A DNA stretch of 64,000 bases from Atractiella rhizophila. Taxonomy: Eukaryota. Positions 51,664-55,604 of this stretch are shown piece by piece. The translations under genes were made by a program, and so were the position numbers. Each line of letters begins with the position of its first letter. The stretch's first letter is position 1. The notes beneath the pieces are model-generated. The model searched no databases and had not been told where the DNA came from. It saw only the letters and a program-made list of their open reading frames with translations. The stretch is taken from the NCBI GenBank assembly GCA_021432655.1, contig MU271184.1:1-64000 (forward strand), written 5' to 3'.

Positions 51664-54600
51664 TCAAGCCACAATCGGAATCAATCCCAAGTTGCCAGGC
51701 TGGAGGCGGACGGAGAATCCTTCGATAGAGTCCTTGACATAGTCGTCGATGGATTGCTTCAGGCGTCTGCATGCCAGACTCTCAACACATGAAAAAAGAT
51801 AGAATGTTGGACGCACCCTAGGATTTCTTGCTCTGCCTTTAGCTTGTCTCCAAAATCGTCAGAGAACTTCTTGTCCATGTAAACAGCTACAAACGTCGTT
51901 GATCAGCCGACAACGAAGAACAGAGTCCAAGACGTGAAGGACGCACAGTAAGAAAATCCTATGGATCCAGCGATTTGTTTATCCAGCCCCGTATCCTTAT
52001 AAGAAGGAGTATCGGAGTATCCCAATTGACGAGGTGTCTCGATGTAGCCTTTTTGGCATCGCTATAGCTCAATGGATTTGGCTTCGCCAAGTCAGTAGCC
52101 AGTTTATAGTTTTCGTAACCCGGTCCAGCAGGGACGGAACCGTTGGAGTTATTGACCTTTTTGTATCCTGGGGCTTCCGTCACAGCTTCCGTCGCGTCTT
52201 TGTACGAGGAATAGGACGGCGCGTCCGTGGCGGATTGAGCGACCTGATATCCCTTCGCTGCGTCCGTTACAGATGCATAGCCAGTTTGAGCGTAGCTGGG
52301 AACCTCCTTCGTGGCTTCCGTCGCGGTTTTATAGGACGAGTAAGACTGTGCTTCCTTGGATGCCTCAGTGGCAGTCTGGTAACTAGCTTTCACCGCCTTG
52401 TCATAACTACCCGCAATATTCTCCGCAACAAGCGACAGAGAAGAATATGAGGGAGGGCCTGCCTTCAAACCTTGGTCGTAGCTGGAAGGACTCTTGTCTG
52501 CAACGGTTGCGATAGCTTCGTACCCCTTGTTGGCGGTGGGGAGGGAACTATAGCTGGGATTCTGAGCATAGGACGGAGCAGTCGACGCTTTATCCGCTAG
52601 CTTGTATCCCTTGCTCGCAGCATTAGCGGACTTGTAACCCACCCTCGCGGCTTCAGTCGCAAGCTTGTAATCGCTCGCTGGAAGAGAGGCATAGCTGGGG
52701 TTCTGACCGTGGGACGGAGCAATCGAAGCCTTATCCGCAAGCTTGTACCCTTCGCTCGCAGCATTTGCCGCCTTATATCCCTTGCTTGCAGCTTGAGTCG
52801 CAAGTTTGTAGTCGCTCGAAGGAAGGGCAGCGTAACTGGGATTCTGGGCGTAGGATGGAGCCTTCGAAGCTTTATCCGCAAGCTTGTACCCTTCGCACGC
52901 AGCATTCGCCGCCTTGTATCCTTCGGTCGCAGCTTCAGTCGCAAGCTTGTAGTCGCTCGCGGGAAGAGAGGCATAGCTGGGATTCTCGGCATAGGACGGA
53001 GCTGTCGACGCTTTATCGGCTAGTTTGTAACCCTCGCTCGCAGCGTTCGCGGATTTGTATCCCTCGCTCGCAGCTTGAGTCGCCAACTTGTAGTCACTCG
53101 AAGGGAGGGCAGCATAGCTGGGGTTCTGAGCGCAGGATGGGGAGCTTGCAGCCTTGTCAGCCAGTTTGTACCCCTCGCCCGCAGCATTCGCGAGCTTGTA
53201 GTCGTTTGATGGGAGAGAGGAGTAGCTGGGGTTTTGACCATAGGATGGAACCTTCGACGCTTTATCGGCCAGTTTGTAAACCCTTCACTCGCAACATTCG
53301 CCGCTTCGTATCCCTCCTTCGCTGCTTCAGTCGCCAGCTTGTAATCGCTTGAAGGAAGCGAGGCGTAGCTAGGGTTCTTGGCATAGGATGAAGCTTTCGA
53401 AACTTCACTGGCAACCTTGTAGCCTTCGCGGGAAGCTTCAGTCATCACCTTGTAATCACTCGAGGGGACGGCAGCATAGCTGGGATTTTGAGCATAGGAT
53501 GGAACCTTGGATGCGTCATCCGCCGTCTTGTACCCTTCGGTGGCGGCCAGAGTCGCAGATTTGTAATCGCTAGAGGGGACGGAGGCGTAGCTGGGGTTAT
53601 TAGCGTACGATGGAGTATTCGAAGTTTTATCAGCCAAGTTGTACCCCTCATTCTCAACCGGGAGAGACTTGCTTTGAACAATCTTTTCGTAAGTCGGCGC
53701 CTCAGTCGCCGCGTATGTGCTCTGGTACTTGGCTTTGAACCCATCGCCAGTTCGAACATCGACTTTCCCTTGAATGACAGGTTTGATCATGTCAATGGCA
53801 GGTTGGTAACTTTAAGGCGAGCATCAGAAGTCCGTTCCAGACGCAGGATTTACATACCTCGGTTGCCGTGACGCGCACATCCTGTCGCTTGATCTGGACA
53901 TATACACCAAGAACGACGATGAGGAATCGGGCGAAAGCAGTGGAGACCTAACCATCAGGCTCAGATCCCAATAAATGGACAGGACCAATGCAGATCTTAC
54001 CTTCTTGTCGTGATATTTGGCAGCCTGTTCTTCGGTACAATTCTTCCTGATAGAAGCAGCTATTGTAGTAGCCGCACTCAAACCTCCTGTCAACGCCTGT
54101 GACGTGACAGTAATGAGAACATGTACAGTTTGGCCGCAGACAATATTTAATGGGAGACAAAAAAATGAGTACACACCATGTGTACACCGGAGGAAAACAG
54201 GGGATCTAATAAACATGTTATTATACCGCAACAAGGTTGATGGTCGAAGGAAACGTACCGATGAAACAGGCAGCATCTCCAACCACACGATAGTTTGGCC
54301 CAGCTTTTTGATCGCTGTCGTACCTAAATATCAACCTCTCAGCCCTTATGCAAAGCGTGACGTACGAAAAGTCGCTAGCAGATCTCAAAGGCTCGCTCGC
54401 GATTCGAGTAGCGGTACCCAAAAGTTCCATTACTTGAGGAGCCCCTTTGAGGCCGGCGGTGTAATATTCTTCAGTACTGGCAAATTTTTTTCGTATCTTT
54501 TTGAAAGCAACCTCATTCTGGACCAGTCCTACAGAGACCTTTCCTTGCAGAGGGATGAACCAGACCCATCCCGTTCCGTCCGCCAGAGATTGGAAGTAAG

Positions 54601-55604
54601 GTGCATTCTCACGATCAGTCCCTAGTATCACATCAGCGTTGCACTTGACTGCAAGAATGGCAAGTTCATACCCGGCGCGTATGCGTCTTGCCCCTCAAAA
54701 TAGGCCAAGTTGGCGTAATTCTTCAAAGAGTCGAGGAACCTTCGGTTCTTCAAATACTTCGTGCTCATGAGACCTCCAAAATTTGGTTAGCCAAGACATA
54801 TACCCCAAAATCTAGAATGCTAACCGAAGCGACCACTGGCATCAACCAAGTAATCGAAAGTAATTGTTTGAGCGGTAGTATTACCCTTCTTGGTGTAGGT
54901 AGCGGAAACCGGTTTTGCTGGATTTTCTTTGTCAAAGGTGAGCTCTGTGACCTTAACATCTTCGAAAACCTTGGCTCCCAAAGCTTGCGCCTGGTGGAGA
55001 AGGATCTCGTCGAATTGGGCTCGCTCGACGCTGTAAATGCGTACACATTAATCCAAGAACAGCCAGACGTGTGAACAGAGGCACATACTTCCAAACACCA
55101 TTATCCTTGGACTCTTCTATGAAATGGTGTAAGCAGGAGGGAGGTCCTTCACGAAGTGGGCAATGGCTCCGGGCTACAATGGCAGGTCAATCTGGATTCC
55201 CGATCTGAAATCCCTCGCACCTTCTGAGTGAATCCATGGTCACGGACCTTCTCCTCCACCCCAAAGAACCTCAGATGAGGTCTCACCTGATCTCAAGCAG
55301 CATCAGAATCATTTAACCCAGAACAGAGAAGATAAAGCCTCACTGAGGGCAGGAGAGATTCTCCAATATGATATCTATTCGCGTAAGAGAAGTGTCAGGA
55401 TTGACAAGTAGCGTCAGGATGGCGTACCTGGGATGCTTAGTGGATTCAAGCAACACGACATCAAAACCTTCGCGAGCCAAAACTCCAGCAGAATAACTCC
55501 CAGCTATGTGATGGTCAGCCGGTAGCAACAATCAGTAAAGCAGGGGACAGACGTGGTCCACCCCCAACGACGAGGATGTGAGTTTGCTTAGGGATGCTAC
55601 CCAT
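51664..55604 (-). CDS. Flavin-dependent halogenase (RadH/Rdc2-like fungal family) with a large internal Tyr-rich tandem-repeat insertion; three apparent frameshifts (~55125, ~53280, ~52050)
   Basis: Spliced model: [21 protein letters not shown] (FAD-binding), [21 protein letters not shown] (expected catalytic Lys position), [28 protein letters not shown] (WxWxIP), [28 protein letters not shown], then the repeats, then [25 protein letters not shown] at 55602-55604, TGA at 51664-51666. Confidence 0.9.
52000..53690 (-). repeat. Coding tandem-repeat array inside the halogenase: 36-47-aa units, consensus [47 protein letters not shown]
   Basis: Nine NPSY cores at + strand positions 53587, 53476, 53365, 53222, 53114, 52973, 52832, 52691 and 52550 (spacings 111, 111, 143, 108, 141, 141, 141, 141 bp). 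Degenerate PSY/GYK/SYK units continue to ~52000. Confidence 0.95.

What the first reader, a model, noticed from the sequence alone, without database searches (positions are those of the whole stretch)
51664..55604. Halogenase carrying an internal array of Tyr-rich peptide repeats: candidate self-modifying enzyme-precursor (RiPP-like) system
Seen in the sequence: after exon joining, a complete fungal flavin-dependent halogenase ([42 protein letters not shown]) reads from [10 protein letters not shown] directly into ~570 aa of tandem repeats (about five Tyr per 47-aa unit, in GYK, PSY, NPSY and SDYK). It then resumes with the family's C-terminal motif ([17 protein letters not shown]). The repeats are therefore an insertion inside the enzyme, not a neighbouring gene. 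Established knowledge: RadH/Rdc2-type halogenases act on phenolic rings; some flavin halogenases such as MibH modify ribosomal peptides; borosins (OphMA type) and plant BURP proteins are enzymes fused to their own, sometimes repeated, core peptides. Inference: this protein may halogenate or oxidatively modify its own Tyr repeats and release them by proteolysis at the regularly spaced Lys residues. Alternatively the array is a structural or scaffold segment. I do not know of a described halogenase with this architecture, but novelty was not checked.
Basis: partly seen in the sequence, partly recalled or inferred. Interest (0 to 1): 0.92.

Follow-up and report, generated by a model that had tools for sequence, protein, structure and literature searches.

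The report
Halogenase gene with internal tyrosine-rich repeats
A fungal halogen-adding enzyme gene carries a 600-residue tyrosine-rich repeat block inside its own coding sequence; the block is transcribed with the enzyme and conserved, so it probably matters, but this copy of the gene is broken and what the repeats do is untested.

Summary
On the minus strand, 55604-51664, lies a RadH-type flavin-dependent halogenase gene with 15 exons. A 604-residue insert rich in Tyr, Lys, Ala and Ser (60 Tyr) sits between the family's PVIQG motif and its C-terminal RLxxGxLGL motif.

- **One transcript:** spliced contigs from four public runs, two of them on record as soil metatranscriptomes, remove 13 short introns. 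They run unbroken from halogenase exons for 0.7-0.85 kb into the repeats.
- **Selection:** repeat units are old and under purifying selection (pN 0.08-0.28, pS 0.52-0.80). Differences at codon positions 1/2/3 are 21/16/50%.
- **Second case:** a 54-60% identical metagenomic halogenase (P0003) carries an unrelated Tyr/Lys-rich array at the same site. The other 33 motif-bearing relatives have 0-4% Tyr there.
- **This copy is damaged:** against all covering transcripts it has three frameshifts, a GT..AA intron and Leu at a conserved Trp. I read it as a defective allele or paralogue (about 0.65), otherwise assembly error.
- **Function:** nothing shows what the array does. Self-halogenation of the tethered tyrosines is my leading inference (about 0.35). 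A non-substrate disordered appendage is about equally likely.
- **Novelty:** five literature searches found no such architecture.

The parts
51664..55604 (-). Whole coding span of the halogenase-with-array gene: 15 exons and 14 introns. Read with X at three breaks it gives 1064 residues.
   Evidence: The exon list comes from the joints, adjusted to GT..AG. Introns, in plus-strand coordinates: 55504-55552, 55375-55427, 55287-55343, 55174-55220, 55031-55088, 54774-54824, 54622-54671, 54324-54365, 54206-54258, 54097-54176, 53948-54000, 53812-53857, 51887-51946, 51767-51816.
53858..55604 (-). Exons 1-12: the flavin-dependent halogenase catalytic domain. It carries [19 protein letters not shown] (catalytic-Lys position), GWVWFIP and [16 protein letters not shown].
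   Evidence: Pfam PF04820. tblastn with P0002, P0003 and P0006. Motif coordinates. Eleven spliced joints in this span.
51947..53811 (-). Exon 13. It holds the end of the catalytic domain (to [10 protein letters not shown], 53787-53758) and the whole Tyr-rich insert.
   Evidence: ORFs 53020-53811(-) and 51959-53284(-). Contigs X1 record 5, X2 record 23 and X15 record 11 bridge from upstream exons down to 52957, 53134 and 53006.
51948..53757 (-). The 604-residue insert: 60 Tyr, 57 Lys, 114 Ala, 91 Ser, 4 Arg, 2 Phe and no Trp. Predicted disordered, with helix-prone Ala-rich stretches.
   Evidence: Composition. AlphaFold2 on the 441-residue ORF gives mean pLDDT 37.4.
52550..53646 (-). Regular array of 9 units of 36-48 residues. 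The unit consensus is [36 protein letters not shown], plus an optional 10-residue [13 protein letters not shown] segment.
51817..51886 (-). Exon 14: the linker after the array.
   Evidence: Loose ends at 51886 and 51947 in X1, X2 and X16, and the joint 51766->51817. The flanking introns are GT..AG.
51664..51766 (-). Exon 15: the family's C-terminal segment with the RLQPGNLGL motif and the stop codon.
   Evidence: ORF 51664-51858(-). Joint 51766->51817 in X1, X2 and X16. It aligns to the RadH and P0006 C-terminus motif.
55124..55125 (-). Break 1. The window is one base short here compared with the transcripts, and its frame runs into a stop soon after.
   Evidence: One letter is put in behind 55124 in X1, X2 and X16, the three runs that cover the place (table 4). 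Raw translation.
53278..53279 (-). Break 2. The window has two extra bases, in a GGGTTT stretch where other units have GGTT.
   Evidence: Two letters are left out in 4 of 4 runs (table 4). The two overlapping ORFs lie in different frames.
52041..52042 (-). Break 3. The window is one base short, with a run of five A where the transcripts have six.
   Evidence: One letter is put in behind 52041 in 4 of 4 runs (table 4). The downstream frame matches P0004.
53812..53813 (-). Lost splice acceptor. The intron 53812-53857 ends AA in the window.
   Evidence: The joint 53811->53858 appears in 4 of 4 runs with no positional ambiguity, and the skipped stretch has ends TT..AC. One search confirms the ends. 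P0002 has Glu where the window's read-through frame has Lys, which puts a G at 53812 in that locus and gives it a canonical AG.
54706..54708 (-). Leu195 codon at a position where the transcripts and P0002 have Trp, as does the family consensus.
   Evidence: 54707 A>C in both covering runs changes TTG to TGG. P0002 sequence. Consensus 'VAxWGYW' in alignment A1.
55660..55662 (-). Probable acceptor of an intron in the 5' untranslated region. The transcript's upstream leader is not in the window.
   Evidence: X1 loose end behind 55659. The 30-letter leader has no match in the window with up to 3 mismatches. This rests on one contig, so it is weak.

Best explanation
Shown:
- This is a RadH/Rdc2-type flavin-dependent halogenase gene of an Atractiella-like basidiomycete.
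- The family's naturally length-variable segment between the PVIQG motif and the C-terminal RLxxGxLGL motif is replaced by a 604-residue, disordered repeat array rich in Tyr, Lys, Ala and Ser.
- Enzyme and array are made from one spliced mRNA.
- The array is translated and kept by purifying selection.
- The copy in this window is disabled by three frameshifts, a lost acceptor and a Trp-to-Leu change.

Inferred:
- The array is a tethered phenolic substrate. The enzyme takes reduced flavin from a separate reductase and makes hypohalous acid. The acid is held at the catalytic Lys of the GFTQK motif.
- The halogen is then placed ortho to the hydroxyl of the array's tyrosines, on the same molecule or on neighbouring molecules. 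Each protein molecule would be a single-use, multi-site precursor.
- Whether the halogenated protein is itself the end product, or is cut into peptides, is open.
For: **Architecture and transcript**
- Of the 14 introns, 13 are removed in the contigs. X1 and X2 show 13 of 13, X16 shows 12 of 13 and X15 shows 5 of 13. X15 and X16 are on record as metatranscriptomes from two studies.
- Single contigs bridge from the halogenase exons down to 52957, 53134 and 53006.

**Selection**
- In 28 unit pairs pN is 0.08-0.28 and pS is 0.52-0.80. For the 24 pairs with computable dS, omega is 0.06-0.32.
- Differences at codon positions 1/2/3 are 21/16/50%.
- The three length differences between expressed variants are 30, 9 and 3 nt, all multiples of three.

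**Tyr specificity**
- 37 of the 150 listed relatives carry the PVIQG-type motif.
- Only P0003 (56 Tyr in 504 residues) and three Atractiella copies have at least 5% Tyr behind it. The other 33 have 0-3.9%.
- P0003's array uses 14- and 8-residue units unrelated to the window's 37/47-residue units.
- The Tyr columns never hold Phe. The insert has 60 Tyr and 2 Phe.

**Chemistry**
- The FDH motifs are intact.
- The closest solved structure is RadH, 8gu0.
- Passages of the review PMC8407142 say that RadH and Rdc2 have open, accessible active sites, and that related 'variant B' FDHs chlorinate carrier-tethered tyrosine.
- No polyketide or other pathway gene lies in the 64 kb.
Against: - No data of any kind show a modified tyrosine.
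- This segment tolerates low-complexity expansion in the family. The distance from PVIQG to G.LGL is at least 139 residues in 10 of the 27 relatives where both motifs are found, and those expansions are Ser/Pro-rich. The site is therefore permissive in any case.
- The array is predicted disordered (pLDDT 37; below 50 for most of the P0003 array). That fits a spacer or sticker role as well as a substrate role.
- P0003 and the window's gene are each other's closest non-Atractiella relatives. Their Tyr-rich arrays may therefore descend from one event rather than two.
- Two Atractiella copies, P0004 and P0081, lack the main array.
- No protease, reductase or transporter gene lies nearby.
- The empty neighbourhood may only reflect that this is a displaced dead copy.
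- Known peptide-modifying FDHs act on Trp. In the 2025 review PMC12615548, Tyr appears only in NRPS contexts in the passages I read.
Confidence: 0.35

Rival explanations
1. Non-substrate appendage. The halogenase acts on a small phenolic metabolite made elsewhere. The Tyr/Lys-rich disordered array serves another selected role, for example multivalent 'sticker' interactions or condensate formation, membrane or wall association through its helix-prone Ala-rich 30-residue stretches, or docking of partner proteins.
For: - Both arrays are predicted disordered.
- The same loop is expanded with other low-complexity sequence in 10 of 27 relatives (sequences).
- In RadH, 448-450 of 520 residues are modelled, so about 70 residues are unseen.
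- All characterised members of this clade act on small molecules (passages of PMC8407142).
- Purifying selection fits any functional role.
Against: It does not explain why a phenol-halogenating enzyme in particular carries 10-11% Tyr in two lineages while 33 of 37 relatives have 0-3.9%. It also does not explain why exact motifs such as PSY, NPSY and SDYK, rather than composition alone, are kept across units saturated at synonymous sites.
Confidence: 0.35
2. Full RiPP-like reading. The array is a multi-core precursor, its tyrosines are halogenated in cis, and small halogenated peptides are then cut out and are the active products.
For: - All the evidence for the best explanation applies here too.
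- The architecture is analogous to enzyme-precursor fusions. Borosin methyltransferases and plant BURP cyclases are recalled examples. The listing abstracts name these classes.
- Lys and Pro recur at fixed positions in each unit.
Against: - There is no signal peptide, because the N-terminus is the FAD-binding fold.
- Only 4 Arg occur in 604 residues, so there are no regular dibasic sites.
- No protease or other tailoring gene lies in the window.
- No product is known.
Confidence: 0.15
3. Neutral low-complexity expansion with no function of its own, in a gene family that is decaying in this genome.
For: - Five copies are known: the window plus P0001, P0002, P0004 and P0081, which lie on four Atractiella rhizophila contigs. 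All give broken or truncated models.
- The neighbourhood is rich in transposable-element relics.
Against: - Omega is 0.06-0.32 with saturated synonymous sites.
- Third-position differences are in excess.
- Length variants among the expressed forms are in frame.
- The spliced transcript appears in runs of four studies.
Confidence: 0.07

Closest known systems
RadH / Rdc2 fungal phenolic flavin-dependent halogenases (PDB 8gu0)
   Same: - Full-length homology: P0006 against 8gu0 gives E 5.6e-106 over residues 6-520.
- The P0003 model against 8gu0 gives TM 0.89 and 46% identity.
- The motifs are the same, including the C-terminal RLxxGxLGL.
   Different: RadH has about 100 residues between PVIQG and the C-terminal motif. 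Here there are about 655, of which 604 are the Tyr-rich insert. RadH sits in a polyketide cluster (radicicol; passage in PMC8407142), and no such genes are found here.
'Variant B' FDHs acting on carrier-tethered tyrosine (Tcp21, VhaA, CndH, SgcC3)
   Same: They halogenate the phenol ring of a tyrosine held on a protein (passages of PMC8407142 and PMC12615548). CndH (3e1t) is a sequence relative, with E 5.6e-38 to P0006.
   Different: Their tether is a phosphopantetheine thioester on an NRPS carrier protein. Here the tyrosines would be peptide-bonded residues of the enzyme's own chain.
Enzyme-precursor fusions: borosin OphMA-type methyltransferases and plant BURP-domain peptide cyclases
   Same: This is recalled knowledge. 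Only listing abstracts were seen.
   Different: The enzyme families are different. In those systems the cores lie at a terminus or N-terminal of the domain, not inside a loop of the catalytic fold. Modification and release are proven there and untested here.
Peptide-modifying FDHs of bacterial RiPP pathways (SrpI, ChlH, MibH)
   Same: They are flavin-dependent halogenases that act on ribosomal peptides, guided by disordered regions (listing abstracts of PMC10858898 and PMC12518702).
   Different: They are bacterial, they act on Trp, and the precursor is a separate gene.
Kex2-processed repeat proteins and dikaritin precursors of fungi
   Same: They are tandem repeats of short Tyr-containing cores under selection (listing abstract of PMC7329392).
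   Different: Those carry a signal peptide and KR sites, and they are not fused to an enzyme. Here there is no signal peptide and only 4 Arg in 604 residues.

Membership tests
Flavin-dependent halogenase, RadH/Rdc2 clade (Pfam PF04820) | N-terminal GxGxxG FAD-binding motif | tested here: met
   GGGPPG lies at 55565-55499 across intron 1, and the transcripts read GGGPSG. G13, G15, P16 and G18 are invariant in alignment A1.
Flavin-dependent halogenase, RadH/Rdc2 clade (Pfam PF04820) | WxWxIP motif, which separates halogenases from flavin monooxygenases (recalled) | tested here: met
   GWVWFIP lies at 54571-54551. W223, W225, I227 and P228 are invariant in A1.
Flavin-dependent halogenase, RadH/Rdc2 clade (Pfam PF04820) | Catalytic Lys after the HGF motif | tested here: met
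   GFTQK lies at 55235-55221. K74 is conserved in at least 90% of A1. That this Lys is the catalytic one is recalled knowledge.
Flavin-dependent halogenase, RadH/Rdc2 clade (Pfam PF04820) | Profile match and full-length homology, including the C-terminal RLxxGxLGL | tested here: met
   PF04820 matches at E 5.7e-6, above the cut-off. tblastn hits to P0002, P0003 and P0006 run along all exons. The C-terminal motif lies at 51732-51682.
Flavin-dependent halogenase, RadH/Rdc2 clade (Pfam PF04820) | An intact open reading frame in this copy | tested here: not met
   There are three frameshifts and a GT..AA intron compared with the transcripts. The family assignment stands. This copy is probably non-functional.
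Flavin-dependent halogenase, RadH/Rdc2 clade (Pfam PF04820) | Halogenating activity | not testable with these tools
   This needs an enzyme assay.
Enzyme-fused RiPP precursor (borosin or BURP type logic) | Enzyme and repeated candidate cores in one translated polypeptide | tested here: met
   There is one spliced mRNA, it is in frame in the transcripts, and there are 9 conserved units.
Enzyme-fused RiPP precursor (borosin or BURP type logic) | The cores are modified by the fused enzyme | not testable with these tools
   This needs mass spectrometry.
Enzyme-fused RiPP precursor (borosin or BURP type logic) | A releasing protease, or cleavage signals and a released product | tested here: not met
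   No protease domain is found in 94 window ORFs scanned against Pfam (25, 69). There are no regular dibasic sites. The neighbourhood of the expressed copy could not be seen.
Kex2-processed repeat protein / dikaritin precursor | Signal peptide and KR-flanked repeats | tested here: not met
   The N-terminus is the FAD-binding beta-alpha-beta fold. There are 4 Arg in the 604 residues.

The most novel reading that the evidence does not exclude
A eukaryotic, single-polypeptide halogenation system. A RadH-type flavin halogenase chlorinates or brominates about 60 tyrosines carried on a giant loop of its own chain, and the loop is then cut, for example next to its regularly placed Pro or Lys residues, into small halotyrosine peptides. 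This would be the first halogenase fused to its own precursor and the first flavin halogenase acting on ribosomal Tyr. It would also be a new fungal RiPP-like class, active in root and soil fungi.
Probability: 0.15. Interest if true: 0.9.

Novelty: new variant of a known kind. Interest (0 to 1): 0.6.

Why it matters
Flavin halogenases are known to act on free small molecules, on carrier-tethered amino acids and on Trp in bacterial ribosomal peptides. A phenol-type halogenase with dozens of conserved tyrosines built into its own chain is not described in anything I could find. It gives a concrete, cheap test: express the intact allele and look for halotyrosine by mass spectrometry. That test would show whether eukaryotes make halogenated ribosomal peptides or proteins in this way. 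If they do not, the array is still a clear case of a selected, ancient repeat array living inside an enzyme loop. The public protein models of this gene family in Atractiella rhizophila are all truncated or scrambled, so the architecture cannot be seen in current protein databases.

Tried and rejected
**Searches that found nothing useful**
- Complex prediction with the P0003 halogenase domain and a 65-residue piece of its array gave no verdict (score 0.00). I do not count it either way.
- A protein search with the 441-residue repeat ORF among 773-2205-residue proteins found no hit in 7,995 candidates.
- The same query among 242-772-residue proteins found only P0001.
- The P0003 array, searched among 497-1582-residue proteins, found only itself.
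- I did no 'shorter' search, so short split models cannot be excluded.
- Two metagenome-contig scans, with P0003 and with the window's junction piece, found no relative.
- The ESM Atlas gave a best score of 0.77, below lead level.
- Earlier findings of this scan held nothing by sequence or place. By words there were only loose parallels.
- No whole genome is held for this window.

**Weak or inconclusive results**
- The Pfam DUF4881 hit on the repeats (31 bits, with no single stretch passing) is treated as compositional.
- I classified 36 listed coding differences between window and transcripts as 14 synonymous and 22 non-synonymous. This is inconclusive: short contigs can be laid on the wrong repeat unit, and 90 more differences were not shown.
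- The X1 5' leader was not found in the window. This rests on one contig, so it is weak.

**Readings rejected**
- A separate or nested repeat gene, or an array spliced out as one long intron: contigs bridge the junction and there are no splice signals at the array's edges.
- A recent slippage or TE-derived insert: synonymous sites are saturated, no TE domain is present, and only a single copy lies in the window.
- A Kex2-type precursor: there is no signal peptide and almost no Arg.
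Full report
**What is there**

On the minus strand between 55604 and 51664 lie the exons of a flavin-dependent halogenase.
- Pfam PF04820 matches the largest exon, 54221-54694 (E 5.7e-6, above the cut-off).
- The ORF 53020-53811(-) reads from the family motif [10 protein letters not shown] directly into a repeat-rich sequence.
- A second ORF, 51959-53284(-), continues the repeats in another frame.
- A third ORF, 51664-51858(-), ends with the family's C-terminal RLQPGNLGL motif.
- The repeats are real. Tandem Repeats Finder gives a 141-nt period with 4.6 copies, 79% matches and score 743. The repeat finder gives 8 copies in register. G+C is 0.51-0.56 across the repeat-rich part (52000-53999), against 0.41-0.51 in the other bins.

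**Gene model and RNA evidence**

Twenty public runs hold part of the stretch, none as much as half of its words. I laid four of them. X15 and X16 are on record as soil metatranscriptomes from two studies. X1 is guessed to be RNA and X2 is guessed to be DNA.

- Their contigs skip 13 short stretches of 42-80 nt. X1 and X2 show 13 of 13, X16 shows 12 of 13 and X15 shows 5 of 13.
- After the tool's own cut offsets, 12 of the 13 are GT..AG introns in the window.
- A fourteenth intron, 51887-51946 (GT..AG), follows from matching loose ends at 51886 and 51947.
- Single contigs run from upstream halogenase exons across the 53811/53858 junction deep into the repeats. X1 record 5 (2,065 nt) reaches 52957, X2 record 23 (1,888 nt) reaches 53134 and X15 record 11 (1,218 nt) reaches 53006.
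- The array is therefore part of the halogenase mRNA and is not spliced out.
- No contig spans the whole array, as expected for short-read assemblies of repeats.
- If X2 really is DNA, a processed copy also exists as DNA. I cannot tell.

Joined by these introns, the window gives 3,192 nt. Read with X at three breaks, it gives a 1,064-residue protein:
- catalytic domain, residues 1-403;
- a 604-residue insert;
- a C-terminal segment of about 57 residues.

**This copy is damaged**

Every run that covers the site differs from the window by:
- one extra base behind 55124 (3 of 3 runs);
- two fewer bases at 53278 (4 of 4 runs);
- one extra base behind 52041 (4 of 4 runs).

Each difference restores the frame. 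In contrast, the three length differences seen in only some of the runs are 30, 9 and 3 nt.

The intron 53812-53857 ends AA in the window, although all four runs splice exactly there. The Atractiella rhizophila protein P0002 reads through this intron and has Glu where the window's frame has Lys. That places a G at 53812 in its locus and gives it a canonical AG.

Codon 195 is Leu in the window but Trp in both covering runs, in P0002 and in the family consensus.

One contig's 5' leader is absent from the window. This is weak evidence.

All three indels are homopolymer-length changes, which could be assembly errors. The two substitutions are not of that kind. I put a truly defective allele or paralogue at about 0.65.

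**The array**

Composition and layout:
- The insert has 60 Tyr, 57 Lys, 114 Ala, 91 Ser, 4 Arg, 2 Phe and no Trp. The remaining 461 positions (stop included) hold 19 Tyr.
- Nine units share PSY, NPSY, SDYK and GYK motifs, with 4-5 Tyr per 47-residue unit.

Selection:
- Across 28 pairs of 8 units (36 codons each), pN is 0.08-0.28 and pS is 0.52-0.80. Mean dN is 0.21 and mean dS about 1.4. Omega is 0.06-0.32 in the 24 pairs with computable dS.
- Differences per site at codon positions 1/2/3 are 0.21/0.16/0.50.
- The units are thus old duplicates held by purifying selection on the peptide. They are not a recent slippage product or a TE insert.
- Two of the three Tyr columns hold Tyr in 8 of 8 units. 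The third has Cys and His in this damaged copy, and two runs read Tyr at the Cys position.

Structure prediction:
- AlphaFold2 on the 441-residue ORF, without an alignment, gives mean pLDDT 37.4. It shows nominal helices of about 30 residues separated by Pro/Tyr loops.

**Relatives**

A HMMER search of 1.84 billion representatives with the main exon found 181 proteins at E <= 1e-3.

The closest are four Atractiella rhizophila entries on four contigs:
- P0002, 88% identical, whose model is truncated by read-through of the same intron;
- P0001, which is scrambled but carries repeats;
- P0004 and P0081, which are scrambled and join AKYQS directly to the tail of the insert, so they lack the main array.

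The full architecture is therefore not represented by any public protein model that I could find.

The next relative is P0003, a 904-residue metagenomic protein that is 54% identical over the exon and 60% identical to P0002 in alignment A1.
- It has an intact halogenase domain (model pLDDT 87-98 for residues 1-380, falling to 58-89 by 440).
- At the same site it has a 504-residue tail with 56 Tyr and 62 Lys. The tail is built of 14-residue KYPTGYEASKEAST units and 8-residue KYPKEDST units.
- These units are not alignable to the window's units (E >= 1.1).

Among the 37 of 150 listed relatives that carry the PVIQG-type motif:
- the tail holds at least 5% Tyr only in P0003 and three Atractiella copies, and 0-3.9% in the other 33;
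- the distance to G.LGL is 85-114 residues in 17 of the 27 where both motifs are found, and 139-363 residues in 10 of those 27;
- the long ones I read are Ser/Pro-rich;
- the window's distance is about 655 residues.

RadH (8gu0) is the closest solved structure (E 5.6e-106 to P0006; TM 0.89 to the P0003 model). Only 448-450 of its 520 residues are modelled.

**Context**

I scanned 94 ORFs against Pfam, 25 across the whole window and 69 between about 43.8 and 64 kb. They show only transposable-element relics and an F-box ORF. There is no polyketide synthase, NRPS, protease, reductase or transporter. Only one copy of the gene lies in the window.

**Mechanism**

Shown:
- a RadH-type halogenase and a selected, disordered Tyr/Lys-rich array are one translated product;
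- the array sits in the family's permissive loop;
- this copy is disabled.

Inferred, and my leading reading at about 0.35: the tyrosines are tethered phenolic substrates halogenated by the fused enzyme.
- This alone explains why Tyr-rich arrays, with different units, accompany this enzyme in two lineages.
- It fits the clade's chemistry. Passages in PMC8407142 describe open active sites in RadH and Rdc2 and chlorination of carrier-tethered Tyr by related enzymes.

About equally likely, at 0.35, is a non-substrate role for the disordered array. Release of small peptides is a further step with no support here (0.15). A functionless expansion is disfavoured by the selection data (0.07).

**Novelty**

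Five full-text searches found no halogenase with an internal or fused Tyr-repeat array.
- In the fungal halogenation review PMC9144378, a term search found no occurrence of 'fused', 'fusion', 'repeat' or 'tyrosine'.
- In the 2025 peptide-halogenation review PMC12615548, the passages I read mention Tyr only for NRPS substrates.
- I did not read supplements or whole papers.

I class this as a new variant of a known enzyme kind. It would be categorically new only if self-halogenation is shown.

Noticed in passing
window 40079-40368 and 45421-45708: An inverted repeat pair with arms of 106 and 181 nt, 90-91% complementary, enclosing about 5.1 kb. It looks like the terminal inverted repeats of a DNA transposon.
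   Followed up: no
window 28837-32180 (+): Three large ORFs of 445, 232 and 479 residues. The middle one has a weak match to the P-element transposase HTH domain (E 1.4e-4, below the cut-off).
   Followed up: no
window 62268-62546 (+): A fragment of a PIF1-like helicase (E 6.1e-8), possibly a Helitron relic.
   Followed up: no
window 50681-50959 (+) and 58013-58279 (-): Retroelement relics on either side of the gene: a zf-CCHC gag knuckle (E 5.5e-4) and a Tf2-1-type SH3 fragment (E 3.5e-4), both below the Pfam cut-offs.
   Followed up: partly
window 59760-60428 (+): An ORF with weak F-box matches (E about 1e-4, below the cut-offs). It is the only non-TE domain found near the gene.
   Followed up: no
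window 55659-55662: One transcript contig (X1) continues upstream of 55659 with 30 letters that occur nowhere in the window. An AG lies just upstream on the coding strand. This suggests an intron in the 5' untranslated region whose first exon is missing from, or more than 8 kb away from, this copy.
   Followed up: partly
proteins P0001, P0002, P0004, P0081 (Atractiella rhizophila, four contigs): All four public gene models of this family are truncated or mix frames. Two of them lack the main array, so the family has several decayed copies in that genome.
   Followed up: partly
proteins P0012, P0013: Two relatives of 966 and 942 residues carry a long extra C-terminal region after the complete halogenase. 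It looked like a methyltransferase to me by eye, and I did not test it.
   Followed up: no
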